64,000 nt of DNA from a virus. Where the stretch lies: IMG/VR virus record IMGVR_UViG_3300028833_000003, one strand, 5' to 3'. How positions within the stretch are numbered: position 1 is the first letter of the stretch; every line of letters starts with the position of its first letter. Positions 1 through 64,000 of the stretch are shown here, piece after piece. A program made the translations under genes and the position numbers. The notes beneath the pieces were generated by a model. That model worked only from the letters and a program-made list of their open reading frames with translations, was not told the origin of the DNA and searched no databases.

Positions 1-2114
1 ATTGGTAAATGATTAGTATTGCCATTGTTAGTGTTTGAAGCACCACGATAAATTCTAGTCCATTTATTTGCAGGAATTGCTATAATTGAAGCCAAGCGTG
101 TGCCTGTTGCATCATTATCATTTCCTGCCCAATTTACATCAGTACCACCAGCAGTATTATTATAGTCTGTATTTATATTTAATGCAATCGGTGTCCATAC
201 CTCAGCAGTCCAGCGGTAGGTCGCGCCATATGGTACCATTAATGCTGGCGTATCTGCTAAACGAACTCCATAGCCCCATGAAGAAGTACCAACAGGAGAT
301 ACAATCGTATATGTGTCTGTTTTTTCATCATAAGATACAGAAGTCGCACTGTTATTTACAAGTTTCGCATTGATCATCATATCATTATTTTCCTATACTT
401 CATATGGATGCATATTACCAAATTTATCTATCTTTATACCAACATTATACAACTATTTTATTTCCGTGTCAAGTAACGCAGTACAATAGATACGAAAATC
501 ACTATAACTACCTAATGTTTTTCTCCATACACCACCAGCCTTTGAAAAACCAATATATAATTGACTAAACGAAGCTAACGTTTTTCCTGCTCCAATAGTT
601 ACATTACTTTTTTCGATACCATCCTAATATGTGCGCGCAGTTGTTCCATCATAAGTAACAGCATAATGATGCCATTCATTTTTTATATATGAAAAATTTA
701 AACGCTTTACACCAGAGCCATCACTTGGGTAAATATCAAAACCACTATCACGATGATGGAATGCAGTTAAATTATAATCGGTTGGCGCGGTTTCATTATT
801 TGATGTACAAAAAACCGCATGACTTGTACTATTACCATAACCACTTTCTGGTTTTCCCCACCACGTGACAGTCATTTGAGAAGGAGTTGTTAAAGTTAAT
901 GGTGTTTGGATATAACATAATCCAGTATTATTATTGGTCGTTGGCTCTGAACTATTCCATTTTGTTGCAACAGTATATCTTTTAGTATCTGTTGTAGATA
1001 TTAAATTACCAATAATAGTACCATTATGATTATATCCACTACTATCTTCAATAATATTATTATTATATGTCTAACACCATGGAGTAGCTTTATTACCCCA
1101 TTCTAATTTCATACATTTCCACTATTCAGTAGTAGTAGTAGTTATTGAAGTATTATGATTCGTAATTAATAGTTGTAATGTTGTATAATCTGTATTTAAA
1201 GCAAAAGTTACAGATGAACGTCCTGATGAAGAGGCAGCAATGACTTCCGTAGATAATACTGTTGGCCTATCACTACTACTTTTATATTGCTAAACACGAG
1301 CTTTTAATGGTTTCTGACCTGATATAGCATTGATGTCTATACTAAAAGTAAACTAATCACCATTTTTTGCCCCTGTGGCTTCAACAAAACTAGTAATTGG
1401 CATTTCCCAAATAGTTGTATAATATTGACCAATAGAGAAATTAGTCCAAGTATTAACATTATTATTGGTTAAATTTATAGAATTATCTAACTTATAATGT
1501 AATATTAATCCTCGCGCAATTTCTGACACTTCTGCAGATGATAAACAATGATCATACAGTCTGACATCATTCATCCACCCATTTAATGGATTGCCAGTAC
1601 CTGTCTATGTAGTACCAATATAAGTAGCAGTTGCAGTTGCTTTTGTTGGCGCAGTCCCTGCGGTTCCCGCAGTTCGCAAACCATTTATATATACTGCTTT
1701 TGTATTTTTACTTTTACTATAAGTAAAACAAATATGATACCACTAATTTGCTACAAATGATAATCCAGCGCTAAGATTAATAGTCCAACGTTCGCCAGTA
1801 TCAAAATATAATTGACTAGCATTCATTATCCATGCCGCAAATCCAGTTGAAGCAGTTTCACTACGATTACAAAATAAAGTTGCGGCAGAAAAAGAAGCCA
1901 TTTTAATCCAACAGCAAAAACTCATTTCATCAGTATTATTATCCCATAAAGCCGGTGTCAATGTGATATTACTATTGTTACTAGAAGTAAATCTATAACA
2001 CTAACCAATTTTTCCATTTGTATCAACAGTAAGACTATTACTATTAACAGTAGTATCACTAATACCTTGATTATGTAAATCCCCAGTAAGGGGGAGCCAT
2101 ACTCGCAAACTCAT
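1..2114 (-). CDS. LamG/concanavalin-like repeat protein (partial; at least 704 codons; runs off the window)
   Basis: ATG at 2114 follows GGAGGGAG. The frame was checked open to position 1 with about 10 TAG. Two LamG-like units are visible: ...ANQWYHICFTY...GWMNDVRLYDHCLSSAEVSEI and ...NEWHHYAVTYDG...SDFRIYCTALLDTEIKQLY. Confidence 0.75.
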
Positions 2115-2126
2115 ATAACTCCCTCC

Positions 2127-5100
2127 TTACACAAAGATGAAATCAATACATTCATCGCCGTCATTCCATGCGCTGTATGCATATTCAGTGGTGCCATAAT
2201 GCCATGAATAACGATAAGCACTTAATTCACCAGGAGTGGTTGTTAAATATACGCCACTATCTCCAGTAAGTGATACGTTTGCGGCAGTCGCAGCTAATGC
2301 TGATGTTGTGCCAAGCAAATAAGTTTTGGTTGTCTAATTTAATGCCGCAGAAATTTTAGATGCAGTTGCTGCATTTCCAGTATATTGAGTAGCGCTTACA
2401 TATGAAGTTGTGCTACTGCCTAAATATACTGTACTAGCCTATAAGCTAGCCGTGCCAGTGGAACTGCCAAAAATAAATTTAGTTGGTATCGCACGGCTAT
2501 CTTTCGCGCGATAGCCAAAAAATATTGTTGTACTAGTATTTGTACCGCCAAAATTTATTTCATTATTGTTTTCTGGATATAACCAAAGTCCAGTAACACC
2601 AGATTTGGTTGCTGTTGCGGCATTAGTTACTGTTTCATCACGATACCAAGGCCTATAAGCATCTCGAGTAGCTTGTACAGTGCCCGTAGAAGTAGCTTCC
2701 TAAACAATTTCAAAAGCATCATATAAATTAATTTGCGTATAACCGTTAGTAACATTAAATACATCAATACCAGTATAACTTTTTATAGGTATTGAAACCC
2801 AAAGAGTGCGATAATTAGAAACAGCATCATTATCATAACCAAAACTAACTGTTAATTTATCTGTAGACGTTCCACCAATAATAACTGCTTTTGGCTCATA
2901 CCATAAACTATTCCCATAATTATATCCACTAATACCTATATCAGTATAATCATAAGATTGATAAACACGAATGGTAAATGCTAGCATCCAATTAGTTTTA
3001 GTTTTAATTTTTACTTTTAAAACGCCATTTAAGGAACCCGAAGTTGTAGACCAATGTGCCGCAGAAGTATGTTTAGCAGTACCCCATAATGTATTTGCAT
3101 AAATATTATTCCAGCGTAAAGAAGAAGTACCTAAATCTTTAGTTGCTGTAACTAATGGATATAAATTACCAGACAAACCAACATCGTATGTATTCATACC
3201 AATACGAACAGTATTATTCCATGTTGTAGCACTAGTACTACTTGTTCCGCTTTGAATTGCAAAATAATTTGTATCAGCCGTTCCGGAGCCTAAAGAACCA
3301 ATACGCCAAGATGCTCCAGCTGTTTTATTACTATTATACCAAAAATTAACAAATTTATCTGTGTCACCAGTAATAATATTAACATCCGCCGTCATGTTGT
3401 TAGTACCATCTAATTTTAAATAAACGGTATTATGATTATGACCAGCAAGAGCAAAGTATGAATCAGGATGATAAGCTGATGCACCAATTGTAGTGCCAGC
3501 AATTACTTTACCACTTGAATCAATATAAATTGGCTAAGTAGCAGTACCAACAGCCGCACGCGAATCAGTATATAATGCTTTTACCCAAGGCTACCAGCTC
3601 ATTGTATTAACATTATCTACCTTCACTGTTTTTCCAAAACGATGATGAATTTGATAACTGCTATCATCAATAAAAATTTGATGTCCATAAGTAGAATGCC
3701 ATGGAATATCAATAATCATACCGTCATTTGAATTCCAGGTATCATTGTCATTCATTGCAATAGATGATACTTTCGCAGCTTGAATACCAATACCATTGGT
3801 ATGGAATGCATCAACTGCTTCTTTAGTAGTTAATTGTGCATGATATTTTAAAATACTAGCAGTATCAGCATTGCCAGTAACATTACCATTAAAAATCCAT
3901 TTATTATCTGCACCTGCATAAATAATCCATTGACTAGCTTTATCATCATATAAACCATGATTAACATTTCCAGTTCCAACACCCCACCAATAGCTAATCG
4001 TTGAACTATACTACACTTTTATTTCTGCCTAACCGCCTGCAGCGTGTGTTGCAAGTACATGACCATTTACAATGCCTGCATATAAATTCTTCCAAGCAAA
4101 ACTTGCAGTACCTAAATTAAATTCATTGTTCTTACCTGGCCGTAATGCGGTTTTACCATCAAATAATGCAATAGTATTATCATAACCAGTAGCAAAACCA
4201 ATAGCTAAAGAGCCAGTTTCTGGATAACAGATATAACTTGGACCACTATTATCTGCGGTTCTTGTAAATTCAATATGTTTAATCGCGGTTTTGTCACTGA
4301 ATATTAATCGTTTTACTTCTGCACTATTTAGAATTTTTGTATCTGTCTATACTGTATATAAATGGTCAGTATATTGATATACTGGATGAGTAGCATAAAG
4401 CATAATACAATATGTATTATAAGCACGACCCAACAAAATATAGCAATTACCATCATTAGAAGAAGGTAATGCCTATACAATTGGACTTGCTGATGCAATT
4501 TTACATTTTCTTCCTGTTGTTGGTGTAACTTTCAAATAAACATTCTTATGTGCCGTTAAAGTTGTACCAGTATTAAACGTATAACGTAAATCTACAGGAT
4601 AAGAATAATATAATGCGCCAGCACTAATTGCCGCATCTGCATTAACTGTTGTGGTTGTACCATAATAATAGATTAAACCATCGAGTAAGAATTCTTGGCT
4701 GGTAAGCATTGTCTTACTAGTGCCAGTTGAATTGCTTGTACTAGTAAGCGCGCATAAATGGTCTTCATCAACCTAAAATAATAACTAATATCTATAAATA
4801 ACATTTGCAGCAATATGATTGCCATTTGCAATATATAAGTTAGAAATGGTTGTACTATTACTGTCATAGTAATTTAATACTCTAAACGCACCGCCAGTTA
4901 CAGTTGTCGCATTAACAGAATCAGCACCATCTATAGGAGTCATACTCGCTGCTGAGCCAGCAGCTTCAAACGTTACCCATAAATAATTATTAACAGGATA
5001 ATGTGTAGTTAATCTACCAGTTCCATTTAAAACAACTGGATAGTAATTAGTACCATTATTCATGGAAATATAAACGCCCCAAGTGTGACCGGCGACAGGA

Positions 5101-8100
5101 ATTTTAATTAAGAAAGTATCACCATCAGCAACATTTCTACCAATATTATAAGTCCATTTAACTGGAAAATAACGCGGTGAAACACCAGAACCTTTATCTT
5201 GTTGTGCAGTACCAGTACCAGTAATTAAATTATTAAATACTTTACTATGTACTGTATCACTAAATGTGCCATTAGTGCTATATACACCATTAAATTCATG
5301 TGATGCATCACCCAAGGAATGGGTTTTAGTTGCATATGAATAAATAGAACCCTAAGTAATATACAATGATTTAGATGCTGTATCCATCGCTGAACCAGTA
5401 CCAGGACGAAGAAGAATAGCATTAAGCGCATTAATTGCAACATTGCCATTACTTGCTGCGGCCATATATGCTTGTTCTGTCTTAATTGTACCATTAGAAT
5501 TAAGAGTGTACCAAGAAATCCTATTATTTGCAGCATTACTAATAGCATCATTAGCAGCAGTAAATTGAACATTGCCTCTAAATAATCCGCCTAAATCATC
5601 TATAATACGTATCCAACGAGTACCAACAACAGCGCCTGCATTTAAACGCTTATAATATAAATGATTTGTGCTACCAAAAGGTACTGCTAAATCAGTATAA
5701 TACCCATTGCTATTGCTATGATGCATTCTTAAAATATGCCACCAGGCTGTAGTTGGTGTATCATTTACTTGCGCGGCATGTCCCGCCGTACCATTAATAT
5801 CAAACCAACGCAAACCAATTAAATTATAATCAGTACCATCATTACGTACTAAACATTTAGCGCCTGTCGCAGTTCCATCTAAATCACCATGGAACTTATA
5901 AGCATATACAGTTTTCCATTGATGCGAAGTATCGCCTAAATCTTGAGCATTATCCGCGCCTGGACGCACAAGTCCAGTCTTATAAATAACCAACTGTTGA
6001 TTTGCACTATCTCCTGTGCCAAAGCCAACAGCCAATACAGATGCGGCATTATCAGGATAAGTAACATAATTCCAACTACTACGGCTAAATTTAATATGTG
6101 ATTCCGCAGCAGTACTTGCAATGGTTACTGTTTTTGTATTAGTTTCACCATTAATAGTTACTTTACCTTTAGCAAAATTAGCAACTTGCGTACCAGTAGT
6201 TGCGCGAATAGTATCCCAAGATCCAGATAATGCGGCTTCATAGACTTGAACATCTACCTAATTAGCAAACAATCTTATTCTATCAGGACCACTAGTATTA
6301 TTTACATCATTACCTTTAAATAATAATAATTCACTTTTTTCATTAGCTGTATCTTTTGGTCCATAAATAGATTCACCAATATAAGTATGATTAAAACCAG
6401 CAGGACCATCACCATATACACCATAAAATGCAATATAGTTATTGCTACCAGAGTCGGCACTAGCATAACCGTTTTGCCCGCTCCCAGTACCTGCGGTATC
6501 ACTACTACCAATTAATAATGGTCCTTGTAACCAAGATTTACCACCAGCGACTTTTAACGCATAATTTACATCTGGAGCAATATTAATACCTAAATGAGGT
6601 CTAATACTCCAACCAGTTGCCGCATGTCCTTGAATACGACTTGCTGCACTATTAGAACCATTATAGCTAATATAAAAATTAGAATCAGTAATATCTGCTG
6701 CCGCAGCTGTTGCATTTGCTGGCGTTGAATATGCTCCAACTAGCCAAACACCATTACCAGTACCATTAAGAGTGCCTTGCGTACCACCAAGAGTTACAAC
6801 AGACCAACCGTTTGAAGATCTATTAATTCTAATTCCTTCTGAGTATGAATTAGAAGTATTATAAGAACCATTAATAACAATATGGCCATTAACAGTAATA
6901 AGATTGGCACCATTAGATACTGCTGTTCCACTATCACCAAATTTAATACCTGAACTATTGATTTGTGCATATTGACCATTAGGCCCAACTTGGAACGTGC
7001 CGTCTGTGCGGAAAGTGCCGCTATCTTGATAAACATTCTTTGAACCGACGGTACGTATCCAAGTCTCATCAGTCATCTTCCAGCCGCCACCATTTGCAAA
7101 TATTAAAGTATTATTTGTTAATGCAGTATTAGTATTATAAACTTTAAAACCATTAACTGCGCTAATTTGATGATCGAAATAGTATGATTTATCTTGACCA
7201 TTTGTAAAATGTATCCAAGAGCCATTTTGCGCGCCAATTTCTACAGTAATACTATGATTACTTATTTTTAATGTACCACCACTAATAGTGTCAGACCAAG
7301 TATTATCACCGCGCCAAAATTTAGCTGTCGTGCCGCCTGATGTAGAAATAGTTGCGGCACTACCGGTAATGCTAATAGGCCACGTACCACTTGCGCCAGT
7401 ACCAGTTAAAGTAGGTGTGTATAAATTATAATTTTTATCATCTAAAATAGTTGCCCAAGATTTCCAAGGATTTGTACCATCAACTACATTCCAACCTGAA
7501 CGATAACGAATACCATATGCTTTACCTTGAGCAGCGCTAGCATTATGACTAATATAAAACTAAACAGCCCCACCATTACCAGCACGTATTACATATAACG
7601 CGCCATAGGCATATGGGGCATTTTGATTAGTCCCTGGATTATTAGTACCAGTAAAACCATTACTAGAAGCAACATAATACGCACCTGTCGTAGTAATATC
7701 CCAAGAGCTATCAACACCAATATTGGTAGGTGCTTTGATAATATCATCTAAAGTACCAGTACCGCCTAAGCTGATAGTTTTGTTGCCAATAGTAATGGAT
7801 GAATTTTCTAACTTACTATTAGCAATAGAACCAGCTAACATAGCATTAGTTACTTTTCCTGCCCCAATAGTAGTGGCAACACTCCATCCCTTTGTGCTAC
7901 TGCTTGACTCACCAGTTACGTCACCAGTTAATTTAACTGTTGTCCCAGAGGTAAAAGCCGCTGCGCTACCAGCCTTAGCAGTATAATCTTTATAGCTAAC
8001 AGTTACTCGATGCTCTGTTGGTATAATAGAAGCATCATCTGCCGTATTATCAATGACTGACCAGTCTTGTGAATAATCTCTTGTTAAATTGCTTGGCCAA

Positions 8101-10084: not shown

Positions 10085-10792
10085 TTAAGATATTTCAGTT
10101 ACATCATTCCAATAGCGACTTTCCATTAATTCTTTAAACTAACGAGTTAATTCGTTATAGTTCTGTAACATAATTAAATACTAACCATCTTCATAAATGG
10201 TTTCTTCTTCTGGAGTTGGTTGTAAAGCATCTAACCCATACAAAATTTTTGTATGTACTGCTTGTGTGCGCAAATTATATATGTAATGATAATTACTTGG
10301 ATCATCTTCATCTTCGGCTAAGCGATAAAATCTTAAACCAAATTGAAGAGGTCCAGCAACTTTTGTAGCAGCACCTTGAATTATCCAACCAAGTACCATA
10401 TAGCCAGGATAACTCGTTAAATCTTTAAATAAAATTGGCGAAACATGACTTTCACCGGCCGCATTTACATATTCAATAACTGCGGTTGTACGATTTAAAT
10501 CCATATCGTCAAAATAACGAGGTACTTTAAAGAAAATCGTTTCTGCTAAATGGTCTTTTTCTACACTTAAAAATTCTTTATAAGCAGGTTGATTTTCGAT
10601 AAGAATTGTTCGGGAATTTAAATCTACGTCAATTAAAGGAGTAGTAGTAGGACATACCCCGAACAACATCTTATCTTGATAATTCTACTCTATTGTATAA
10701 AGAAGGGCTTTTAATACATTTGCGGCACGATTAGTAATCTCAGGATTTGCTACAACTCCTACTCCAGTAGCAATTTCTTGTTGAGTTGCCAC
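10085..10792 (-). CDS. small paralogue of the preceding N-terminal domain (235 codons)
   Basis: GTG at 10792 lies 6 nt after AAGGAGGG. Three in-frame TAG. TAA at 10085 is followed by a strong terminator. It contains KDHLAETIFFKVPRYFDDMDL...LGWIIQG...GPLQFGLRF. Confidence 0.7.
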
Positions 10793-26058: not shown

Positions 26059-26406
26059 TTATGATATTCCCTCCCCCGCATACATCATATCAATTATAAT
26101 TGAAGGCACTGATTGCGCGGTTATATTTAAGTCAATACTACTATTATCAAATTGTAATAAACGAATTAATGCTCCCGCACTTGCATCAATTTCCCAAATG
26201 CCAGATGGACCAATCATAATTGGATAGACATCATTATTAACAAAAAAACGTGTGCCTGGCGCAGCCTAAATGCCTAAACGAGTAATTGGATAAAATGGTT
26301 CAAATGCGGTGCCATTAACCAACTGCTCTCTTGTAATACCTGCAGGAACATTAATTAAATTAGAATCTCCACCCCAGGTAATCTGATAAAAATTAATTGC
26401 ATCCAT
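26059..26406 (-). CDS. hypothetical small baseplate-associated protein
   Basis: ATG at 26406 follows AAAGGAG. 115 codons with one TAG. TAA at 26059. Confidence 0.65.
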
Positions 26407-38984: not shown

Positions 38985-38989
38985 TAATC

Positions 38990-41179: not shown

Positions 41180-41194
41180 ATTATCACGTACTTC

Positions 41195-54300: not shown

Positions 54301-56001
54301 CCTTCCGCCATAATTATTTGAATTATTTTGCATATAAGCATTAAATTTTCTATAAGTAGGAATACCACCAATTGGATGCCCTTCTGAGCCTTTTGCTGCT
54401 TTCATGTTGCCCCATGCAGTCCGCAACGTACCACCTTTGCCAAAGAAATTTCCAAATGCCATGCTAATACCTGTTAATTTATCTAACATCTATGGTTTAA
54501 ATGCAGTCATCATCATCTAAGAAATTTTTGCTAATATACCAGGGATACCTCCAAGACCATTAACTAAACCTCTAACTGCAGATAACGCTGTTGCCAATGC
54601 ATTATTAAATCCAACAAGGAATTTATCATTAATTAAATCACCGAAAATAGCTTCTTTACTTGCTTGTACTCTTTGTTTAGATGCTTTAACAGAATCTTCA
54701 TAAATTTTCTGCATTTTTTCTAAGCTGCCAGCTGAATTTTGAGCATTTTGCAAATCTTTTTGATACGTATCCCAGTTTTCAAATAATGCCATTAATTGCG
54801 TATATTGACGTTTACCAGCAACAACCTGCGCGATAGCAGTTTTTTGCGCACTGCCCATGGTCTACCATTTATTACCAAGATCAGTAATAACATCGCCCAT
54901 ATCACGCATATTACCAGTAGCATCTAAAACCTATACACCAATAGAATTTAATGAGCTTGAAACTTTACCTAAATTAACACCGTCTTCTAATGTTTCACCT
55001 AATTTTAAGTCACCCATACGTGCTAAAATAGTTTTAAAAGATGTACCAATTGATTCAGCACTTTCACGAGTAACAGAAGATACAGTTGCAACAATAGAAG
55101 ACATTTGTTCCATACCGACACCAACAGTACTAGCAGTCGCGGCAACTTTCTATAAAGCTGTTGCAATTTCTTCCATGCTAGTAGCAGTAGTAGAACCTAA
55201 TTTTGCCATTACATCTACATAACCTTCAAGCTAATCACCGCCTGCTTTATAAGAATTCCAAACGGCGGTTAGCATTTCTGACATTTCCGCAGCATTAGCT
55301 TTGAATGCAGTATTTGCAGCCTTTAAAGTAATTTGTGCTTTCTTTTGTACATCTCTATCATTATCACCCTATTGATAATAAATTAATGCTGCATCAGCAT
55401 ATGCTTTTGTTGATGTACTTAAACTTTTTGCCATTACATTTGCTTCTTTTGCAAAATTGCTCATATCAGAAATAGATTTGCCAGTAACAACACGAATATT
55501 ATTTAATGAAGTATTTAAATTTTCAATATAGCTAACTGCTCCACTCATAGCAGACTATAAGCCATGAACCATTTGACTAGCTGCTTGCCATTTCACAGTA
55601 TTCATTAAAGTTGTGCCAAACTATGCAATAAGACCAGTCGCTTTTTGCGCGGGAATAGTTGCCTAAGTTAGAACAGAAGACAACTATGAAATTGCCTATT
55701 GTCCAGTTGTACCGGCGCGCTAGAAACTGGCAATTAACGTTTGAACATTTGTATTAGCACTCGCCAAGCTATTACTTAATGCACTAAAATTAATTTGCCC
55801 AGTATTAACATTAACTGCCTATTGTAATGCCTACTATAATTTTGCTGCTTGCTACGCGGCATCTGCCATATTTGTATCAATTTTTAAATTTAATCTACTG
55901 TTTTGCTGCAATCTTTGTAATGAAGAACTTAATTGTTCAACCTACCGCTATGCAGCACTGGCATCAGCCTAAATATTAATTTTATACTATACACCAGCCA
56001 C
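42343..56001 (-). CDS. tail tape measure protein, 4,551 codons
   Basis: GTG at 56001 lies 8 nt after AAAGGAG. I checked every codon of this frame and found no TAA/TGA from 56001 to 42346, and about 100 in-frame TAG. The N-terminal core reads SMEEIATALQKVAATASTVGVGMEQMSSIVATVSSVTRESAESIGTSFKTILARMGDLKLGE...GKRQYTQLMALFENW (TP901-type TMP core). The C-terminus reads YASGGLVDYTGPAWVDGTPNKPELMLNAADT (typical TMP end). The interior is long and coiled-coil-like. TAA at 42343 is followed by a terminator. Confidence 0.85.
45223..45282 (-). other. Gly11-Lys5-Gly-Lys-Ser-Lys low-complexity tract inside the TMP
   Basis: The + strand run cctccaccgccgccgcctccgccgccaccacc, preceded by ctt/ttt codons, encodes ...APGGGGGGGGGGGKKKKKGKSK... 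in the TMP frame. Confidence 0.8.
49741..50400 (-). repeat. about 9 tandem 24-codon repeats inside the TMP
   Basis: Consensus KTITFQGEFGTYTxxYxTAIxxxx. Two units (49819-49962) are near-identical at DNA level with a 72-nt period. Older units diverge upstream, and degenerate units continue below 49741. Confidence 0.8.
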
Positions 56002-56075: not shown

Positions 56076-56600
56076 TTAACCTATTTTATCTAAAATTTCT
56101 TTAACCGTAGTTAATTTTTCTGGGTCTTCAATTTTTTCAATTGTTTTATCAATATCATCTTTTGCAATCGCATAATCTGCATTAATCATATTAATCATAC
56201 CAGCTAATGAATTATTATAAGAAACAATATTATTCGCACATTTCTAAGCAGCGTCCCATAATAATTCATGTTCTCTTGTGGGAATTGCTTTAATTACACT
56301 ATCATAAACATGATTAAGTTCTAATGCATCAAATACTTTACTAATATTTTCTAATTGCTTATCAGTAATATTAATATTAGTATAATAACGAATTAATAAA
56401 ACTTTAAACCAAATTTCTAATCGCATTGGGTTATAAGCACCAGTAGAATCAATAGTATATGATAATAATTCACTAATCAACTGTGCTTTATCATCTACTG
56501 ATAAATACTAAATTACATTAATTTCTGTATCTCCTATTTTTATAATCACAGGTTCAACTGATTTAATGGGTGTTACTTTTGAAAAAGCAACTTTCGCCAT
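56076..56600 (-). CDS. tail assembly chaperone-like protein (XkdN-like, tentative)
   Basis: ATG at 56600 follows AAAGGAG. Two in-frame TAG codons (56508, 56244). TAA at 56076. It is small and acidic and sits directly upstream of the tape measure gene. Confidence 0.55.
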
Positions 56601-56662: not shown

Positions 56663-56812
56663 TTATGAATCTGCGATAGACGCTAAAGTAGATTTTGAAA
56701 TTTCAGTTATCCAATCTCCTTTTTGTTTATGTATCATTTCATTAACTTGAGTATAGATTTTGCTAATAATTTCTGCTGTACTAATAACATAAATGTTTGC
56801 ACTACCAGGATC

Positions 56813-57904
56813 ATTATATACTAAATAATTAGCACCTAAATCACCAATACCATCTTTCTTTAATTCATTTCTAATAATTTCGTCTACATAAGTTTGACCT
56901 CGACCTGTTAATTCATAAATAACACGTAACTACTATAAAGCTAATCGTACATCTTCACGATGAGTATTACGAGCATAATAAAAAATACTAATTGAAACAC
57001 CATAAGGAAATCGAGTATTAAGCAGATCTAAATAAACACGTTTACTTTTTGTCTAACCAAAATGAACTGAACGTACTCTTGACTAAATGGCATTTGTAAT
57101 ACCTGTCGCGGCGTCTTTAATATATGATAAACTATTATAGTTTTTTGCAGTAAAATAAGCTTTATGCAATAATTTAGCAATATGCATTAATTTAGATCCG
57201 GCGGTTGCAGTAATTGTTAATTCAACTGCATGTCCATTCACATCGACTTTACCATTAACAGTAGTTGTTACAAAATCATCGGCAGATGTTCGTTCATCAA
57301 ACAGGCGTTTAATTTTATCTGCTTCCTCTTGTACTGCAGCATTAGCAAGATCACTTATTGCTCCATCAATCATACTACGCAATGGAGTATGCGCACCTTT
57401 CGTACTTACTGAATGCCCCATAACATTTACTTTTGCGGCACCAAAAATAACATCATTTAAATTGGCATTTTTTGCTCCTCCAAACTACTAAGTCGCCATA
57501 CTGATAGCCGCCAATTCGCCTTCTAAAACATCACCTTGCGTCCAACCTTTAGACTTCAAACCAGTGCGAGTAAAAAAACCTCTGCCACTAGCGCCAATAA
57601 CAGAACCCGCTTCTTGTAAAATCTAACTTAAAGCTTGTTGCTAAATACCACTTTTTAATGATATATTCTCAAAACCCTTATTACCTTTATTAGATAAATT
57701 TTTTAAATCACGAAAAAAATCTTGCAATTCTCTTGCTTCAGCAGCACTACCTGCTCCTTCAACTGCTCCGTGACTATTACCAAGACCATTCATAATATTA
57801 TTATACTCGCTCATTAATTCATCACGCATCGCAGTTAATGCTTGATAAGGATCTAATCCTTCATATGCTTTATATCGTTCACCTAAGTGTAATAATCTTG
57901 GCAT
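56813..57904 (-). CDS. hypothetical tail protein (C-terminal end unresolved)
   Basis: ATG at 57904. ORFs 57641..57904 and 57083..57421 are joined in one frame by about 8 TAG. The frame stops at TAA 56813 immediately followed by TGA. See the finding on the frame break at 56663-56860. Confidence 0.6.
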
Positions 57905-57922: not shown

Positions 57923-57957
57923 AAAAAAAATGGGGACGAGCTTTTTTGCTCGTCCCC
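57923..57957 (-). terminator. rho-independent terminator after the major tail gene
   Basis: On the minus strand: GGGGACGAGC-AAAAAA-GCTCGTCCCC followed by TTTTTTTT. Confidence 0.85.
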
Positions 57958-57976
57958 ATTTGTATTATATCAATAA

Positions 57977-59059
57977 TTATTCACCAAAACGCTTTGGAGG
58001 TTCCTTACCAGAATCTTCATAAATGTCGCCTGGGAATTTAGTATCACCCTCAACTGCGCCACGAGTTGAACCATCATAAAGTGCAGTATCTTCAACAATC
58101 TGAAGAGCAGCAATTACTTTCTTGGTCTTATCAAACTTAGTATAGTCTGGGAAAGCATCCATTGTGAAAGTAAAGGTAGAAGGATCACCAGTAGGTGCCA
58201 TTGTGAAGGTAAAGTTAGACTGAACCTTGCAGTTAGGAATGATAAATTCAGCAGGATAGTCTTCACCAGTTGCTTCATCACGGAACAAAGTAGAAGCTTC
58301 AAGATAATAAGAACCACCGAACTTACCAGCTTCAATATCAATCTGCTTTACATACTGAGTGCTCTTTACATAATAGTCAATATAAAGAACAGAACCTGGA
58401 TCATCGCCCATGCCATTAACGTAGTCATATACTTCCTGTGGATTCTTAGCATCCTTATAAGCATCTACGTTTGCTTGGAACTCAGTGCCAATAGGAGCAT
58501 GAGCATCCATGATCTTACCAGCGACCAATAATTCATTATGAGCAGCATTATAAGCAGCAGCCCAATGAGCAAAGATTTCTTCAACGTTCATTTCCTTAGC
58601 AATATCATCACGTTGAATTTCCATAGGAATACGATTGGTATTAATAGAACCATCAGCATTCTTCAACATAATATACATGCTACCACCCTTGGCTGGCTCA
58701 TGAGCAAGAGTAATCTTACCTGCTTTAATCTGAACCTGCTCAGTAGTATGTACATAAATAGGATGATCTTCATCAGCATCCATGAAACCAGCACCAGAAA
58801 GAATTGAGAAGCTTTCTGGACTAATCAAAGCATCTTCCATTGTAAATGTTACAGTACGGTCGCCTTCCCAAGCTACCAAGCGAGGATTACCTTTACCGCC
58901 CTGAGCATAAACAGTTGTGCTCTGGCCTTCCAAAGAAGAAGTCTTCAATGTTTCAAAATATAACACAGGCATATCCTTGTCAAGATACAACTTACCGAAG
59001 AAACCTGCTGCCTTACGACGAAGTACAACATCGCAAATTTCGCGTACGCCAAATCTCAT
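57977..59059 (-). CDS. putative major tail (tube) protein
   Basis: ATG at 59059 follows AAGGAGGAAACGCAT; the ORF-track start at 59098 is upstream of the SD. 360 codons with no TAG. TAA is followed by a strong intrinsic terminator. It lies two genes (about 2 kb) upstream of the tape measure gene. Motifs such as PVLYFETLKTSSLEG...TVYAQGGKGNPRL recall siphophage tail tube proteins. Confidence 0.6.
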   Translation of the reverse strand: MRFGVREICDVVLRRKAAGFFGKLYLDKDMPVLYFETLKTSSLEGQSTTVYAQGGKGNPRLVAWEGDRTVTFTMEDALISPESFSILSGAGFMDADEDHPIYVHTTEQVQIKAGKITLAHEPAKGGSMYIMLKNADGSINTNRIPMEIQRDDIAKEMNVEEIFAHWAAAYNAAHNELLVAGKIMDAHAPIGTEFQANVDAYKDAKNPQEVYDYVNGMGDDPGSVLYIDYYVKSTQYVKQIDIEAGKFGGSYYLEASTLFRDEATGEDYPAEFIIPNCKVQSNFTFTMAPTGDPSTFTFTMDAFPDYTKFDKTKKVIAALQIVEDTALYDGSTRGAVEGDTKFPGDIYEDSGKEPPKRFGE

Positions 59060-59076
59060 ATGCGTTTCCTCCTTAA

Positions 59077-59817
59077 TTAATGTAAACTTTTCATCCAATC
59101 GTCTGGTTTACTGTCGGGTTTTCCGCCAGCCAAACGTGATCTTATATCTAAATCCCACCCGACATATAAGCCGTATCTCTCAATCAAATCATAGAGCTGA
59201 TAGACCGTAAGATTAAGGCAATCATCCAGACTCATGGATTCCAGAGCAATGGTGAGAATAGAAACATATCTAGATAAAACACCATCATTACCACCCGAGC
59301 CTCTACGCCGAGCAGCTTCACTACGACCCTTCATTAATTTCGCCGCAATTGCAGCAGCTTTATTACCTTTTGGATTATAATTTGAGTTCTAACCACCAGT
59401 CGCATTATTTAATCCACACACTTCTGTTAGAATTGCTTGCACAGTATCAAAATTATTTTCATCAAGAGTAAAAGAATGTTTTGTCGTAGCGTTATTAAAA
59501 AAAACTCCCATAGGTAAAAACTATGCAGTATATCCTGGGAAAAACAACATAAACAGTTGTTCGATGGTATTTTTCCGCTTCCCCGAATCCTAAATATTCG
59601 GGTTAGCTACTAATGTCATAAATATCTAAAAATTATTAAGGGCGGCTAAACTAGAAGCGCCCTATCCTGTCTAAGATGCTAAAAGCACTTTTCGATTAAA
59701 ACACACTAACTATAAGGCTAAAAAATATTCTTCTTCACCAATTAATGCAATTTCCGCGATTTTAGGCTAGTGGATTGTAGTCTATAACTCAACTACTGGG
59801 ATATTAGTCCCAGCCAT
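59077..59817 (-). CDS. hypothetical tail-completion protein
   Basis: The frame is open from ATG 59817 to TAA 59077, checked line by line, with about 10 in-frame TAG. It fills the apparent ORF-free gap 59335-59817. There is no clear SD, so the start is less certain. Confidence 0.6.
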
Positions 59818-59831
59818 TAAAGCTAATGAAT

Positions 59832-60365
59832 TCATAATAATGGGTTCCGCTAATCTTCTTCTCCGTGAATAGCTTCATAAGTTAAACATAAACCCATCAA
59901 CTAATCATTAAGTAAAAGATTGCGCCCAGTTAAGAATTGAGTTTCCCCAATTCCAGTTAATTTTTTCTTATTGAAAAGACTATCAATTTCACCAGCAATC
60001 TTATAAGGACGTAACTAAAAATTGCCTAAATTCCAATGATCAGGATGACAAAGAATGTCAAATTCAATAATACAATCTCGATACACTGGATTCTTTTTAT
60101 TTGGCTAAAAATTATCCATTGAAATTAATACGTAATTAGGACACTCAGTAGAAACTTCTAGCTAAGGAACTATACGTATCTACTTATGAATCATAGAATA
60201 TTTTTGTTCTTGTGTTAAATCATTTGCTTTTAAACAATCTTTTTCAGTATAATAAAGTAATTTCATTAAACGTTGATCTTCCATCATTTTTTGAATAATC
60301 AACGCCAAATCTTTATCGACCGCCAAGAAACTTGATTTAGGAAAATAATCTTGCCCAACAATCAT
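59832..60365 (-). CDS. hypothetical neck/tail-completion protein
   Basis: ATG at 60365 follows AAAGGAGGAG. Five in-frame TAG codons. The real stop is TGA at 59832. Under code 11 only the first 61 codons are seen. Confidence 0.7.
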
Positions 60366-60382
60366 ATTAACTCCTCCTTTAA

Positions 60383-61348
60383 TTAAAACAATGATTCAAC
60401 AACAATAGTTTTATGTAAATCTTCAATTAGCATATCATTATGAAATACAATTTCAAATTCACCACTAACCATTGGCAACCATTTTACAATTAAACCATTA
60501 TCTTGTTCATCTACTCGCCATTCAACTACATCATCAATATCTTTATTCTAAGATGTTGATACTACTGACCAGTCACCGCGAATACGACGATTTACATTAT
60601 ATTTAACTTCCTATCTTGGCTTAATAAATACTTCACCATCAATAGAAACATCAAATATATTCTGCTTAGGAGGATTAGGATCGGTAGGCTCAATTATATA
60701 TTCATCTCCATGACATTCATAATCTTCTTCTGCGACTATTTCTAAAATACCGGGTGTACTAATACTGTCAGGAGCCTGAACTTTCCAATATCTACCTTCA
60801 AATTCAAAGCGTTGATAACGTTCTAGCGCACGTATTGTTTCCTCAGTGCGTTTTACATATATGTCAAGAGTTAAATTAGGTACATCAGCAGCAATACCGT
60901 GCTTTTGAATTGTATTAATTTTAGTTTCAACAGGCCCGCGCACAGCCATCCATAAACCAAATTTTTCTTTAGTTTCTGGATCAGTAACTTCAACCCACTA
61001 GGCTCTGCGGCAATTTCCTCTAAAATATGCCAATTCAGTTAATTCTTGTTTGAGTATTAGCCAATGAATACCAGACTCTTTTGGCCATTCAAAACTATCT
61101 CCTGGCTTAAAATCATATCGCCAATCAACAGAGATAATCTTTTCATCATAGTCAAATTTTACTTTATCAGGATTAATTAATGCTAATACCCATTCACTGT
61201 CTTCTTCATCTTTTTTAATCCAAGCATGTTGATAAGAATAAAGAAGCGCACGATGGAATGAACGTCTTTTATCTCGAACCATGCGGTCATGTTGGCGGTC
61301 ATTAACCGCGGCACGTGCGCGAGCGCGCAAATTATCTAGTGCGTCCAT
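60383..61348 (-). CDS. hypothetical head/neck structural protein
   Basis: ATG at 61348. ORFs 60998..61348 and 60611..60949 plus the 60383-60610 tail form one frame joined by TAG at 60998, 60611 and 60548. TAA at 60383 lies just before the next SD (AAAGGAGGAG). Confidence 0.7.
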
Positions 61349-61661
61349 CTAACTAATTCGCTAAATCAGTTAATAGTGAAATTGCACTAAAAACTGTTTT
61401 GCGATATATCATAAAATCGGCTTCGTCAAGCAGACCATACAATTCAGTAACAAATACTAAAAAGTCTAATTCACCGCCAAATATTTTGTCTAACCCACGA
61501 AGTTCAAGTAATACAGTTTTAATCTATCCTTGCCAATCCTCTTGATTTTCACGCATCGGCAATAATTTCCAAATCTGATTGACCAGACGACGCAAATCGG
61601 TCACTACAACACCTGGTTCAAATTTGAACTCAGTTGTTTCTGATTGCTTCCCACTTGCCAT
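61332..61661 (-). CDS. hypothetical head-completion protein (start uncertain)
   Basis: The frame is open to TAA at 61332 with two in-frame TAG, and overlaps the ATG of the next gene. Candidate starts are ATG 61661 or GTG about 61605, the latter after an AGGTG. Confidence 0.45.
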
Positions 61662-62211
61662 AATCAATACCATTATCGCTATCTGCGTCGCCAGATCCTT
61701 CATGAATAATCTTAACAGTACCAGCTAATGCAGCTTCTTCTTGCTTTGGAATAGCACTATCATTAAGCATATGCCAATTAGACATAACATGTCCAGTTTC
61801 TGGTACAATTTTACGCCGCTTATATAAACGTTGTGCGTGAATATTCTCGCGCCACACCTCAGTCTTTAAATTTAAAAGCTTCGCAAGATGATTAGCTTGC
61901 GAAGTAAATTTAAAATCTGAACCGCTATATTTCATGCGTGTATTTTCAATAGAAGAAATCTGTCGGTCCAACCATACGACTTTCATTAAAATAGCGAAAA
62001 TATTAATTTCTTCTCTGGTTAAATCAACATTGTATTGCTCTTGATCTGCGTCATAATCATATAGAGCAAATCTTGGAAATTCAAAGTAGGATATGGCATC
62101 TAATAGAATCTATTTACAATCACGAATAGTATCTTCCTCAGTCAATTCCAAATACTAATCATCTGTAATTTTACCAAGGAAGGCATTATAAATAGTTTCA
62201 AATGATGTCAT
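61630..62211 (-). CDS. head-tail connector/adaptor-like protein (tentative)
   Basis: ATG at 62211 follows GGGGGAG. Two in-frame TAG codons (62155, 62110). TGA stop at 61630. The N-terminus MTSFETIYNAFLGKITDDQYLELTEEDTIRDCKQILLDAI recalls connector/adaptor families. The position is right after the capsid genes. Confidence 0.55.
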
Positions 62212-62212
62212 A

Positions 62213-62812
62213 TTACTCCCCCTTTGCCTCTTCTTTCTGCACTACTTTATACTGAGGAGTAGTGCGGCGACCACTAGTTTTAGTTTCGGCCTATACTCTA
62301 CGGGTAGGTGCAGCCTTTACTTCCATACCACTATCAGTAGTATTTGCTTCTTCAGCCTGCGCAGCTTCAACTTCTGCCTTATGCTGCAAAGCAAGCGTTA
62401 TATCAAAACCAGTCTTTGCTTTAAGAGCTTCGCGCTTACGCGCATCATTGCAAGGCAATTCATAAGAATATTTCTTGATTAAATCTATTACACCATCAGG
62501 CGCAAAATCAAGGCAATCAAGGAATGCTTCAACGCTACCATTTTGAATTAAATCAATAACGCCTTTTTCATCCAAATAATATTCAGGTTCAATCCGAATA
62601 GGCATTTCCTTCACTACTTCTGTATCTTCAATAAATAGACTATCACGAAGCATTACAGTACCACCTGGAACAAAACTTAAAGCATCCAACTCTTCACGAG
62701 TAAGATTTTTTACTTCGCCAGGCTACCATTCGCGGCGAATGCCCATATCTGGAATCGTATAAATAAGCATTCTACTACTGCGATTACGCACTTTAATTTT
62801 ATTGTCTGCCAT
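62213..62812 (-). CDS. hypothetical head-associated protein
   Basis: ATG at 62812 follows AAAAAGGAGT. Two in-frame TAG codons (62723, 62291). The frame was checked free of TAA/TGA down to TAA at 62213, 1 nt upstream of the next ATG. It joins ORF 62291..62689 to its flanks. Confidence 0.7.
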
Positions 62813-62841
62813 ATTTTTTTACTCCTTTTTCTCTTAAATTA

Positions 62842-62865
62842 GGACCGCCGCACTGGCGGCGGCCC
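62842..62865 (-). terminator. GC-rich stem-loop after the capsid gene (terminator or attenuator)
   Basis: On the minus strand: GGGCCGCCGC-CAGT-GCGGCGGTCC (7 bp, one mismatch, 2 bp), then TAATTT. It sits between the capsid TAA and the next SD. Confidence 0.5.
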
Positions 62866-62878
62866 TTATATATGATTA

Positions 62879-63934
62879 TTAATCGCCCGTTTCATTTGCA
62901 GAACGTGTAACATTCAATTGACCTTTAAGAGCATCGTCGATATATACGCAGATGTCTGGAGTCATAACAACACCAACGCCTACTTTCTTATAGACCTGAA
63001 TTTCACGGCTGCGATCCTTATTGACATATTCATCAACAATAGTGCTACCTTCCATAACAACCTTGGCAGGCTTTACAGCACCTGGAAGAATATAGCAATA
63101 ACCTGGGTCAATAACCTTTGTCTGATGAGTTGCATCAGTGAAGCCCTGTGGAAGAATAGTAATAGGATGATTCTTATAAGAAGCAAAACGACCATTATTC
63201 CAAATAGTATCCTTCATATTGTCAGAATACATAGCAGCATTAGCAGGACGAATCTTAGAAGCAAATTCTTCAGTGCAATAAATGGTAGGAGTACCATAAG
63301 CTGCAGCGATAGAAATTAAACGATCAAATGCTGCTTCATCCCAACCAGTAACTTCAGCAGTATTAAGAGCTGGAAGCTGATTCAAACCAGTCTTCAAAGC
63401 CTGACCGATTTCCCAATAAATGAGTTCGTCAAGACCTTCCATAACAATACGAGTTACCTCAGCAAAATCAGCACGACCATCAAGGAACTCTTCCAAACCA
63501 ATCTGAGCGGCACCGCCGATAGCACTGGTCTGTACTTCGATAGGCGTATCTTTACCAAGCTTAAATACTTCGTAAATACCAGCCAAACCGACCTTGGTGA
63601 TGAACTGCTTTGCACGCTGACGATCATGCCAACGCATAAAGATAGCCTTGTCACCCTGAGCCATGGTCTTTACTTCGGCAAACTTGCCATATTCCTGCTC
63701 AACTTTACGAGGAAGAACATCATCCATGGTCTGTTCGATTAATTCAAAGATAGTATTCTTATTTTCACGATAAAGAGCAAAAGTGCCTGCATACTCATTG
63801 AGTTCTTTACGAAGGGTCTCATTGAGTGCATCATAGGTGAGATTCTCACCATTAAATGAATATGCAACAGGAGCAGAGCGATCGGCCTTAGCTGTTGCCT
63901 TCATCAATTGAAGAAGTTCTTTCTTATCCAACAT
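62879..63934 (-). CDS. putative major capsid protein
   Basis: 351 codons. ATG at 63934 lies 9 nt after GGAAAGGAGAG; the TTG at 63940 used in the ORF track is too close to the SD. There are no TAG codons. The TAA stop is followed by a GC-rich hairpin. It is the first large gene of a head-to-tail ordered module. Product is inferred from size, position and expression signals only. Confidence 0.6.
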   Translation of the reverse strand: MLDKKELLQLMKATAKADRSAPVAYSFNGENLTYDALNETLRKELNEYAGTFALYRENKNTIFELIEQTMDDVLPRKVEQEYGKFAEVKTMAQGDKAIFMRWHDRQRAKQFITKVGLAGIYEVFKLGKDTPIEVQTSAIGGAAQIGLEEFLDGRADFAEVTRIVMEGLDELIYWEIGQALKTGLNQLPALNTAEVTGWDEAAFDRLISIAAAYGTPTIYCTEEFASKIRPANAAMYSDNMKDTIWNNGRFASYKNHPITILPQGFTDATHQTKVIDPGYCYILPGAVKPAKVVMEGSTIVDEYVNKDRSREIQVYKKVGVGVVMTPDICVYIDDALKGQLNVTRSANETGD

Positions 63935-63954
63935 TGTCAATCTCTCCTTTCCTA

Positions 63955-64000
63955 TTACTGAAGTCTCATAATTTTAACAGCTGGTTGCATATCGCCAAGA
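63955..64000 (-). CDS. 3' end of an upstream virion gene (partial; scaffold-like position)
   Basis: An open frame enters from the window edge and ends ...GDMQPAVKIMRLQ with TAA at 63955-63957, just upstream of the SD of the capsid gene. Confidence 0.3.
   Translation of the reverse strand, partial: LGDMQPAVKIMRLQ

What the first reader, a model, noticed from the sequence alone, without database searches (positions are those of the whole stretch)
1..64000. The whole module is written in a TAG-sense genetic code (code 15-like)
Every minus-strand ORF fragment end I inspected is CTA on the + strand (= TAG): 624, 1353, 1743, 2700, 4473, 4785, 5352, 6258, 7560, 8658, 8991, 9603, 10181, 12613, 13542, 15504, 16236, 17451, 18444, 20868, all 19 fragments between 42454 and 54931, and others. 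The next fragment always continues in the same frame. Reading TAG as sense and scanning codon by codon gives uninterrupted frames of 13.7 kb, 8.0 kb, 7.8 kb and 6.9 kb. All real gene ends are TAA or TGA, each followed by a hairpin or by the next gene's start (usually with an SD). TAG never ends a gene. Conserved motifs (TMP core, LamG, fibre anchors) read straight through TAG positions. TAG-to-Gln recoding is established for some gut phages such as crAss-like and Lak-like clades. Here it affects a siphovirus-like module with Firmicutes-type motifs. The decoding machinery (suppressor tRNA, release-factor genes) is not in this window.
Basis: partly seen in the sequence, partly recalled or inferred. 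Interest (0 to 1): 0.9.

Follow-up and report, generated by a model that had tools for sequence, protein, structure and literature searches.

The report
Phage tail genes reading TAG as glutamine

Summary
All 20 listed coordinates are in-frame TAG codons. Treating TAG as sense merges the fragments into 25 minus-strand genes that cover 98% of the window. These include frames of 13,680, 8,070, 7,842 and 6,981 nt. The genes hold 288 in-frame TAG and no in-frame TAA or TGA. All 24 complete genes end in TAA (19) or TGA (5).

Alignments to 159 related loci give glutamine as the best-fitting residue at TAG. Several columns contain only Gln or TAG. One 99.6%-identical strain has TAG where the window has CAG.

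The window comes from a 169-kb metagenomic contig with SPbeta-type structural genes. Its family includes Enterococcus phage EF1 and the published TAG-recoded phage phAss-1. Members of the family use the standard code, TAG recoding or TGA recoding.

No tRNA lies in the window or in the 10 kb beyond its right end. At least eight TAG-recoded relatives carry a tRNA with a CUA anticodon.

Two side observations are less ordinary. The capsid and tail-tube genes avoid TAG across the family. The nearest relatives' suppressor tRNA has an extra arm.

The parts
62879..63934 (-). Major-capsid-like protein (YonB family), 351 aa, 0 TAG, prefers CAG for Gln
   Evidence: The precomputed Pfam hit is YonB. Homologues in Bacillus phages PJN02 and Kirov are annotated as major capsid protein. 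It has 0 TAG and uses CAG for 12 of 14 Gln codons.
62213..62812 (-). Structural-module gene, 199 aa, 2 TAG
   Evidence: It matches phrog_30998 along its length, and both TAG codons are kept in independent assemblies.
61630..62211 (-). Structural-module gene, 193 aa, 2 TAG
   Evidence: It matches phrog_3853 at 6e-29 and is 45% identical to its phAss-1 counterpart.
61332..61673 (-). Small gene, 113 aa by the source contig's gene call, with in-frame TAG
   Evidence: The gene call on L002 at 12262-12603 maps to these coordinates. One of its TAG sites (codon 89 of my longer 152-aa call) aligns with Q in 65 of 81 relatives.
60383..61348 (-). Structural-module gene, 321 aa, 3 TAG
   Evidence: It matches phrog_31155; TAG count.
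59832..60365 (-). YomW-family virion protein, 177 aa, 6 TAG
   Evidence: The precomputed Pfam hit is YomW, and it matches phrog_6123, a virion structural protein.
59077..59835 (-). YomV-family protein, 252 aa, 9 TAG (highest density, 3.6 per 100 codons)
   Evidence: The phrog_4051 match covers residues 5-251, across all 9 TAG codons. The column at codon 42 holds Q 57, TAG 23 and S 1. Homologues carry TAG in 55 of 55 recoded relatives.
57977..59059 (-). Tail tube protein (YomU_Tube), 360 aa, 0 TAG, prefers CAG and AAG
   Evidence: The precomputed Pfam hit is YomU_Tube, and it matches phrog_2729. Homologues carry TAG in only 3 of 55 recoded relatives.
57928..57961 (-). Intrinsic terminator hairpin just after the tube gene
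   Evidence: It has a 14-bp stem with 8 G-C pairs, followed by a run of T.
56663..57904 (-). Poorly conserved gene, 413 aa, 8 TAG
   Evidence: Gene call and TAG count; homologues were found in only 3 related loci.
56076..56600 (-). YomO-like protein, 174 aa, 2 TAG, followed by a hairpin at 56067-56035
   Evidence: The precomputed Pfam hit to YomO is weak.
42343..56001 (-). Tape measure protein, 4,552 aa, 103 TAG
   Evidence: Pfam PhageMin_Tail matches at 6e-25 over residues 186-394 and profile positions 3-199 of 201, with TAG at residues 211, 257, 284, 357 and 380 inside the match. The N- and C-terminal parts align to the single EF1 tape-measure gene. The columns at codons 211 and 4516 contain only Q or TAG.
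38990..42259 (-). Tail or baseplate-region gene, 1,089 aa, 27 TAG, ends in TGA
   Evidence: Gene call and TAG count.
32040..39014 (-). Large tail gene, about 2,324 aa, 38 TAG; start uncertain and overlapping the previous gene's stop
   Evidence: Gene call and TAG count; the junction sequence is shown.
31620..32009 (-). Small gene, 129 aa, 0 TAG
   Evidence: It matches phrog_1401; TAG count.
28806..31616 (-). Baseplate-region gene, 936 aa, 15 TAG
   Evidence: TAG count. Homologues occur in 76 related loci, and every homologue in the recoded relatives also carries TAG.
26425..28809 (-). Baseplate-region gene, 794 aa, 16 TAG
   Evidence: 3,255 database homologues align at full length. There is a weak, sub-threshold DUF5048 match at the C-terminus. 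All 16 TAG sites are covered by alignments.
26059..26406 (-). Small gene, 115 aa, 1 TAG
   Evidence: The column at codon 47 holds Q 33, TAG 9 and Y 1.
24309..26057 (-). Tail gene, 582 aa, 5 TAG
   Evidence: Gene call and TAG count.
22984..24237 (-). Tail gene, 417 aa, 3 TAG
   Evidence: Gene call and TAG count.
21239..22966 (-). Tail gene, 575 aa, 4 TAG
   Evidence: Gene call and TAG count.
13119..21164 (-). Large fibre-like gene, 2,681 aa, only 7 TAG
   Evidence: TAG density is 0.26 per 100 codons.
10810..12795 (-). Fibre-region gene, 661 aa, 1 TAG
   Evidence: TAG count.
10085..10792 (-). Small gene, 235 aa, 3 TAG, followed by a strong terminator at 10079-10052
   Evidence: TAG count; the terminator is.
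2127..9965 (-). Large fibre-like gene, 2,612 aa, 20 TAG
Evidence: Gene call and TAG count.
3..2114 (-). N-terminal 703 codons of a LamG-domain tail protein that runs off the window, 10 TAG
   Evidence: Pfam Laminin_G_3 matches at 7e-38 over residues 45-197, with TAG at residues 124 and 170 inside the match.

Best explanation
The window is the late structural operon (capsid, connectors, tube, tape measure, baseplate and fibres) of a roughly 169-kb SPbeta/EF1-like siphovirus of a low-GC Gram-positive host. In this operon UAG is translated as glutamine instead of ending translation (genetic code 15).

Shown here:
- TAG is in frame 288 times in 22 of the 25 genes.
- It never ends a gene.
- It sits where relatives have Gln or TAG.

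Inferred:
- Decoding is done by a phage-encoded tRNA with a CUA anticodon, located elsewhere on the genome inside a large tRNA array, as in the relatives.
- That tRNA is charged through the host's Gln pathway and competes with host release factor 1.
- Because suppression is incomplete and needs the phage tRNA first, TAG-rich late genes can be made only once the tRNA has accumulated.
- For the same reason, the two most abundant virion proteins (major capsid and tail tube) are kept free of TAG.
For: ORF lengths and coding density support TAG as sense.

Profile matches run through TAG codons. phrog_4051 covers residues 5-251 of a protein with 9 TAG. PhageMin_Tail and Laminin_G_3 match end to end across TAG codons.

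A maximum-likelihood comparison at the 132 TAG sites covered by alignments puts Q first. K follows at -8 ln-likelihood units, E at -10 to -17 and S at -14 to -22. The order is the same when only standard-code relatives are used; there Q is the commonest residue at 18.9%.

Of 18 TAG sites with a clear consensus among relatives, 6 are Q, against a background of 1.9%. Four columns are essentially only Q or TAG.

The near-identical strain L005 has TAG at capsid-gene codon 68, where the window has CAG.

tRNA(CUA) genes are present on the same contigs as at least eight TAG-recoded relatives and in phAss-1.

The capsid and tube genes have 0 TAG here (P about 1e-4). Their homologues carry TAG in only 9 and 3 of 55 recoded relatives, against 55 of 55 for YomV.

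Published precedent: PMC10607447; bioRxiv 10.1101/2021.08.26.457843; proteomic validation of code 15 in crAss-like phages (PMC9523058).
Against: No suppressor tRNA or release-factor gene was seen on this genome. None lies in the window or in the 10 kb beyond its right end. The other roughly 95 kb of the contig could not be fetched.

Most TAG sites fall in variable columns, so the margin of Gln over Lys is moderate, about 8 ln units.

The nearest relatives' tRNA(CUA) has a class-II-like extra arm that is not typical of tRNA-Gln. Sequence similarity to tRNAs of known type does not identify its amino acid.

The timing and regulation step is inference only.
Confidence: 0.9

Rival explanations
1. 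TAG is a sense codon but stands for an amino acid other than glutamine, such as Lys, Glu or Ser. It would be inserted by a suppressor tRNA of different identity, for example one whose extra arm is recognised by seryl-tRNA synthetase.
For: Lys is the second-best fit and is the consensus at 4 of the 18 conserved TAG sites. The closest relatives' tRNA(CUA) has a long variable arm like the bacterial Ser, Leu and Tyr tRNAs.
Against: Gln ranks first in every partition of the relatives. Ser is 14-22 ln units worse. Leu, Tyr and Trp are not among the top seven residues. Several columns contain only Q or TAG. A CAG/TAG polymorphism separates strains that are 99.6% identical.
Confidence: 0.06
2. TAG keeps a dual role. 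It stops translation early in infection and is read through only after the phage tRNA is expressed, so recoding serves mainly as a timing switch for late genes. This refines the main explanation and is compatible with it.
For: Five small, divergently transcribed genes just upstream of the operon have no in-frame TAG. All TAG-containing genes are late structural genes. The model was proposed for other recoded phage clades (bioRxiv 10.1101/2021.08.26.457843).
Against: Nothing in the window tests timing. None of the roughly 35 genes examined ends in TAG, so there is no positive sign that TAG is still used as a stop. The capsid and tube genes are late genes yet free of TAG.
Confidence: 0.45
3. The host itself reads TAG as an amino acid, and the phage only mirrors its host's code.
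For: The host is unknown.
Against: The same phage family contains standard-code, TAG-recoded and TGA-recoded members (46, 107 and 6 loci). Cultured relatives infect standard-code Enterococcus, Lactococcus and Bacillus. Recoded relatives carry their own tRNA(CUA). I know of no bacterium that reads TAG as Gln (own knowledge).
Confidence: 0.03
4. The TAG codons are real stops: the module is a decayed, pseudogenised prophage or an assembly artefact.
For: Under code 11 the genes look fragmented (JGI gene calls).
Against: There are 288 in-frame TAG and no in-frame TAA or TGA, with ln P about -380 for one gene alone. Independent assemblies keep every TAG compared. Homology continues across TAG codons. 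107 related loci show the same pattern.
Confidence: 0.005

Closest known systems
phAss-1 and the proposed Phassvirus group (Babkin et al. 2023, PMC10607447; OQ749652; NCBI 'Caudoviricetes code 15 clade')
   Same: Both are large siphovirus-type gut phages related to Enterococcus phage EF1, with TAG read as Gln in structural genes and suppressor tRNA(CUA) genes. Their structural proteins are homologous: capsid 50%, tube 43-47% and others 28-45% identical. One of the two adjacent tRNA(CUA) genes of phAss-1 has the same extra-arm form seen in the window's nearest relatives.
   Different: There is no DNA-level similarity to phAss-1, so this phage is not in that genus. The contig is larger (169 kb against 136 kb). 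The tape measure is much longer (4,552 aa against 3,149 aa). GC content is 34%, against about 43-46% in the phAss-1 stretches fetched.
Alternatively coded gut phage clades of Borges et al. (bioRxiv 10.1101/2021.08.26.457843), especially the large Firmicutes-infecting ones such as Agate (154 +/- 27 kb)
   Same: Both show stop-codon recoding concentrated in structural genes and suppressor tRNAs on the genome. Both also mix standard, TAG-recoded and TGA-recoded members within one clade, as found here among 159 related loci.
   Different: Membership in a named clade is defined by the large-terminase phylogeny. That was not tested, because the terminase gene lies outside the window and reference sequences were not on hand.
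crAss-like phages using code 15, validated by metaproteomics (Peters et al. 2022, PMC9523058)
   Same: The reassignment is the same (TAG to Gln), as is the proposed mechanism of a phage tRNA(CUA) acting in a standard-code host.
   Different: They belong to an unrelated phage lineage (podovirus-like, Bacteroidota hosts). No proteomic evidence exists for the present phage.
Standard-code SPbeta/EF1-type large siphoviruses (Enterococcus EF1 and VRE9, Lactococcus 949, Bacillus Tsamsa, Brevibacillus Sundance)
   Same: They share the structural gene set and gene order: Yon/Yom families, tube, tape measure and baseplate.
   Different: They use TAG as a stop. Reading TAG as sense barely changes their ORF coverage (EF1: 0.78 against 0.82).

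Membership tests
Genetic code 15 (TAG = Gln) recoded phage | In-frame TAG in essential genes; full-length ORFs are restored when TAG is read as sense | tested here: met
   There are 288 in-frame TAG codons. Coding coverage is 98.2% with TAG as sense, against ORFs of at least 600 nt summing to 21 kb (about 33% of the window) under code 11.
Genetic code 15 (TAG = Gln) recoded phage | TAG is not used as a terminator; genes end in TAA or TGA | tested here: met
   The 24 complete genes end in TAA (19) or TGA (5), with no TAG. The 11 complete genes upstream on the same contig all end in TAA.
Genetic code 15 (TAG = Gln) recoded phage | TAG aligns with glutamine in homologues | tested here: met
   Q is the maximum-likelihood residue in every partition. 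Several columns contain only Q or TAG. A near-identical strain has a CAG/TAG polymorphism. The margin over Lys is moderate.
Genetic code 15 (TAG = Gln) recoded phage | Suppressor tRNA with a CUA anticodon on the phage genome | not testable with these tools
   None lies in the window or in the 10 kb beyond its right end. The rest of the 169-kb contig could not be fetched. The feature is present on the contigs of at least eight recoded relatives and in phAss-1.
Genetic code 15 (TAG = Gln) recoded phage | Peptides spanning TAG positions with Gln | not testable with these tools
   This needs proteomics.
SPbeta/EF1-like large siphoviruses | Shared structural gene families in the same order (YonG, YonD, YonB, YomW, YomV, YomU tube, YomO, tape measure) | tested here: met
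   Precomputed Pfam hits on the source contig show these families. tblastn against EF1 shows the genes in the same order. Relatives are listed. The local Pfam copy lacks these new families, so I could not re-run the hits myself.
Phassvirus genus (phAss-1, BK046881, BK025033) | Genome-wide nucleotide identity at genus level (the three members share 80-86%) | tested here: not met
   blastn of 8 kb of the window against the phage collection finds no match to phAss-1 and only 6-7% coverage at about 70% identity to any record. Protein identity is 28-50%.
Agate or other named clade of Borges et al. | Placement in the large-terminase phylogeny with at least 95% bootstrap support | not tested
   The terminase gene lies outside the window and no reference sequences were available.

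The most novel reading that the evidence does not exclude
Two features of this lineage may not have been described, and neither is excluded by the evidence.

(1) The suppressor tRNA of the closest relatives is a class-II-like tRNA(CUA). It has a 5-bp extra arm with a conserved YCUGAAG motif, yet it appears to deliver glutamine. That would imply an unusual charging route or a protective or regulatory role for the arm.

(2) TAG is excluded across the family from the two most abundant virion proteins, which also use a different synonymous-codon set (CAG and AAG). This would mean that suppression is costly and that TAG usage is tuned to expression level, not applied uniformly to late genes.
Probability: 0.25. 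Interest if true: 0.55.

Novelty: new member of a known kind. Interest (0 to 1): 0.3.

Why it matters
In practice, any annotation of this contig under code 11 shatters its genes. JGI's gene calls on an identical contig do exactly that, so functional and host-range inferences from the tail fibres would be lost.

Biologically, it adds a divergent member with an exceptionally long tape measure to a family of large Firmicutes phages in which standard, TAG-recoded and TGA-recoded genomes coexist. That family is a good system for studying how code changes arise.

The TAG-free capsid and tube genes and the extra-arm tRNA(CUA) of the relatives give concrete, testable handles on how efficient phage-driven suppression is and how it works.

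Tried and rejected
- Fetching the rest of the source contig to look for the tRNA. The contig look-up refuses proteins whose genes contain TAG. Only the TAG-free capsid gene could be used, which gave 10 kb beyond the right end with no tRNA.
- Reaching the tRNA region through a PTH2 peptidyl-tRNA hydrolase gene that sits next to the tRNA array in a relative. None of the 120 listed homologues lies on the 168,974-bp contig.
- Single-protein search for baseplate relatives in IMG/VR. It found nothing. An alignment-based search then worked.
- The local Pfam copy gave no hits for the small Yon/Yom proteins. A PDB sequence search for the capsid and tube proteins found nothing.
- Typing the suppressor tRNA by similarity to tRNAs of known type. 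This was inconclusive, with weak best matches, often to tRNA-Trp.
- The base following TAG. C is enriched compared with all codons, but other NNG codons show the same tendency, so it is not informative about read-through context.
- Reading TGA or TAA as sense. Both were rejected on ORF statistics.
- Protein-database homologues were not used to infer the residue at TAG. Their gene callers may already have written Q for TAG, so only DNA loci translated here were used.


Full report
**Observation.**
The window is 34% GC, and every sizeable gene is on the minus strand. Under the standard bacterial code the longest stop-to-stop frame is 2,424 nt. The summed length of frames of at least 600 nt rises from 21 kb to 61 kb. 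Reading TGA as sense changes nothing, and reading TAA as sense gains little.

I delimited 25 minus-strand genes, most preceded by an AGGAGG-type ribosome-binding site. Together they cover 98.2% of the window and contain 288 TAG among 20,997 codons. The 24 complete genes end in TAA (19) or TGA (5), never in TAG.

In the 13.7-kb gene the two non-coding frames carry TAA or TGA at 8% of codons. The coding frame has none before its terminal TAA but has 103 TAG, giving ln P of about -380.

Independent assemblies from other samples are 98.6-100% identical over the part they share with the window. They keep every TAG compared (25/25, 8/8, 4/4), so these codons are not assembly errors.

Strong terminator hairpins follow three gene ends: after 10085, after the tube gene and after 56076. 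Elsewhere genes abut or overlap.

**What the module is.**
The TAG-free capsid-like gene is encoded identically on the ENA metagenomic contig ERZ27257202 k141_292341 (168,974 bp). The fetched stretch of that contig is identical to the window where they overlap.

Precomputed Pfam hits on that contig give an SPbeta-type structural set: YonG, YonD, YonB, YomW, YomV, YomU_Tube, YomO and PhageMin_Tail. PHROG profiles match the small proteins along their whole length, across their TAG codons. One example is residues 5-251 of a 252-aa protein with 9 TAG.

Pfam PhageMin_Tail matches end to end across 5 TAG codons in the tape measure protein. Laminin_G_3 matches across 2 TAG codons in the leftmost gene.

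Relatives in GenBank are large siphoviruses of Firmicutes: Enterococcus EF1 and VRE9, Lactococcus 949, Bacillus Tsamsa and Brevibacillus Sundance. They also include the human-gut phage phAss-1. There is no close DNA relative in the phage collection.

IMG/VR holds at least 197 relatives of the tube protein, on contigs of up to about 200 kb.

**Which amino acid.**
I translated 159 related DNA loci myself, so that TAG in a relative stays visible and is not pre-converted to Q. By ORF statistics, 107 loci are TAG-recoded, 46 use the standard code and 6 look TGA-recoded.

At the 132 window TAG sites covered by alignments, the maximum-likelihood residue is Gln. Lys is about 8 ln units worse, Glu 10-17 and Ser 14-22. 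The order is the same when only standard-code relatives are used, and there Gln is the commonest residue at 18.9%.

Of 18 TAG sites with a clear consensus among relatives, 6 are Gln, against a background of 1.9%. Four columns contain essentially only Gln or TAG:

| Site | Column contents |
|---|---|
| tape measure codon 211 | Q 47, TAG 27 |
| tape measure codon 4516 | Q 26, TAG 5 |
| YomV codon 42 | Q 57, TAG 23, S 1 |
| gene 26059-26406 codon 47 | Q 33, TAG 9, Y 1 |

Conversely, TAG in the relatives most often lies opposite the window's Gln. A strain 99.55% identical to the window has TAG at capsid codon 68, where the window has CAG.

With TAG counted as Gln, Gln makes up 4.6% of residues, and TAG supplies 30% of them. 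Gln is therefore well supported, but most TAG sites lie in variable columns, so the margin over Lys is moderate.

**Decoding machinery.**
No tRNA lies in the window or in the 10 kb beyond its right end. None of the 25 genes looks like a translation factor. I could not fetch the rest of the contig.

In the relatives the machinery is visible. A pattern search for a CUA anticodon arm found tRNA(CUA) genes on the same contigs as at least eight TAG-recoded relatives. These contigs have 50-72% tube identity to the window. The tRNA genes usually sit inside large tRNA arrays, for example 25 tRNAs in 12 kb. phAss-1 has two adjacent copies.

The mechanism I propose is inferred from these relatives and from the literature. 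A phage-encoded suppressor tRNA, charged through the host's Gln pathway, out-competes release factor 1 at UAG in a standard-code host.

**Pattern of TAG use.**
TAG density differs strongly between genes:

| Gene | TAG per 100 codons |
|---|---|
| capsid-like gene | 0 |
| tail tube gene | 0 |
| two fibre-region genes (10810-12795, 13119-21164) | 0.15-0.26 |
| tape measure and neighbouring tail/baseplate genes (26425-56001) | 1.6-2.5 |
| YomW and YomV genes | 3.4-3.6 |

The capsid and tube genes also prefer CAG over CAA and AAG over AAA, unlike the rest of the module (Fisher P = 3e-15 and 1e-19). Two further head genes just upstream of the window are also TAG-free.

The avoidance holds across the family. 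In 55 TAG-recoded relatives, capsid homologues carry TAG in 9 and tube homologues in 3. YomV homologues carry it in all 55. I read this as selection against an imperfectly suppressed codon in the most abundant proteins. That reading is an inference.

Five small, divergently transcribed genes upstream have no TAG and end in TAA. This is compatible with, but does not test, the published idea that recoding delays late-gene expression.

**Comparison with what is known.**
- TAG-to-Gln recoding with suppressor tRNAs was described for phAss-1 and related gut phages, which are relatives of EF1 with long tape measure genes (PMC10607447).
- Borges et al. described large Firmicutes-infecting gut phage clades in which standard, code-15 and code-4 genomes sit side by side and structural genes are recoded.
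- Code 15 has been validated by proteomics in crAss-like phages (PMC9523058).
- Gene callers that detect recoding exist (PMC11210395). The caller used on the source contig had already produced a 4,508-aa tape measure gene.

The window's phage is not in the phAss-1 genus. It shares no DNA similarity with phAss-1 and 28-50% protein identity. It does belong to the same broad group.

The finding is therefore correct but not new in kind.

**Side observations.**
The tRNA(CUA) of the four closest large-contig relatives, and one of the two adjacent copies in phAss-1, is 91-95 nt long. It matches the Rfam tRNA model at full length, with a 20-nt insertion in the variable region. It folds into a five-arm cloverleaf whose extra arm carries a conserved YCUGAAG motif. 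I found 38 distinct such sequences among the 149 CUA tRNAs fetched. A literature search found no description of this form in recoded phages. I could not determine which enzyme charges it.

The tape measure protein, at 4,552 aa, is far longer than those of EF1 (about 2,675 aa) and phAss-1 (3,149 aa).

**Verdict.**
This is a new member of a known kind, of modest interest.

Noticed in passing
L126:3304-3398, L294:1810-1901, L115:4707-4799, L297:42-134, L008:32442-32532: In the closest large-contig relatives and in phAss-1, the suppressor tRNA(CUA) is class-II-like. It is 91-95 nt long and has a 5-bp extra arm with a conserved YCUGAAG motif. It matches Rfam tRNA at 55 bits, with a 20-nt insertion in the variable region. 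38 distinct examples were among the 149 CUA tRNAs fetched from IMG/VR. Alignments nevertheless say that TAG is read as Gln. I found no published description of this form.
   Followed up: partly
window 62879-63934 and 57977-59059; homologues in L009-L088: The major-capsid-like and tail-tube genes contain no TAG and prefer CAG and AAG, unlike all their neighbours. The same TAG avoidance holds in 55 TAG-recoded relatives: TAG occurs in 9 capsid and 3 tube homologues, against 55 of 55 YomV homologues.
   Followed up: yes
L005 (Logan DRR855044) against window 62879-63934, codon 68: A strain 99.55% identical to the window over 2,236 nt has TAG where the window's capsid gene has CAG. This is a direct CAG/TAG polymorphism.
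   Followed up: yes
window 42343-56001: The tape measure gene encodes 4,552 aa, far longer than in EF1 (about 2,675 aa) or phAss-1 (3,149 aa). By the usual rule of about 0.15 nm per residue (my own knowledge), that implies an unusually long tail. It also contains a Gly11-Lys5 run near residue 3,320.
   Followed up: no
window 38984-39020: The 2,324-aa gene has no convincing start codon or ribosome-binding site. Its frame opens 25 nt before the TGA stop of the upstream 1,089-aa gene. The candidate starts are TTG 39014, GTG 38993 and TTG 38984. Translational coupling or a programmed frameshift is possible.
   Followed up: no
L082, L065, L076, L232, L255, L261: Six loci of the same phage family gain long ORFs when TGA, not TAG, is read as sense (for example L082: coverage 0.34 to 0.79). 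One structural-gene family therefore contains standard-code, TAG-recoded and TGA-recoded genomes.
   Followed up: partly
L126:319-813: A PTH2-family peptidyl-tRNA hydrolase gene (Pfam PF01981) sits inside the tRNA array of a TAG-recoded relative, about 2.5 kb upstream of its tRNA(CUA). It may be relevant to coping with drop-off or truncated products during suppression.
   Followed up: partly
window 13119-21164 and 10810-12795: Two fibre-region genes have much lower TAG density (0.26 and 0.15 per 100 codons) and more CAG and AAG than their neighbours. This might reflect recent acquisition from a standard-code phage, or different constraints.
   Followed up: no
L002:1-1800 (10 kb beyond the window's right end): Five small genes transcribed divergently from the structural operon contain no in-frame TAG, and the four complete ones end in TAA. 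They may be early genes written in a way that the standard code can read.
   Followed up: partly
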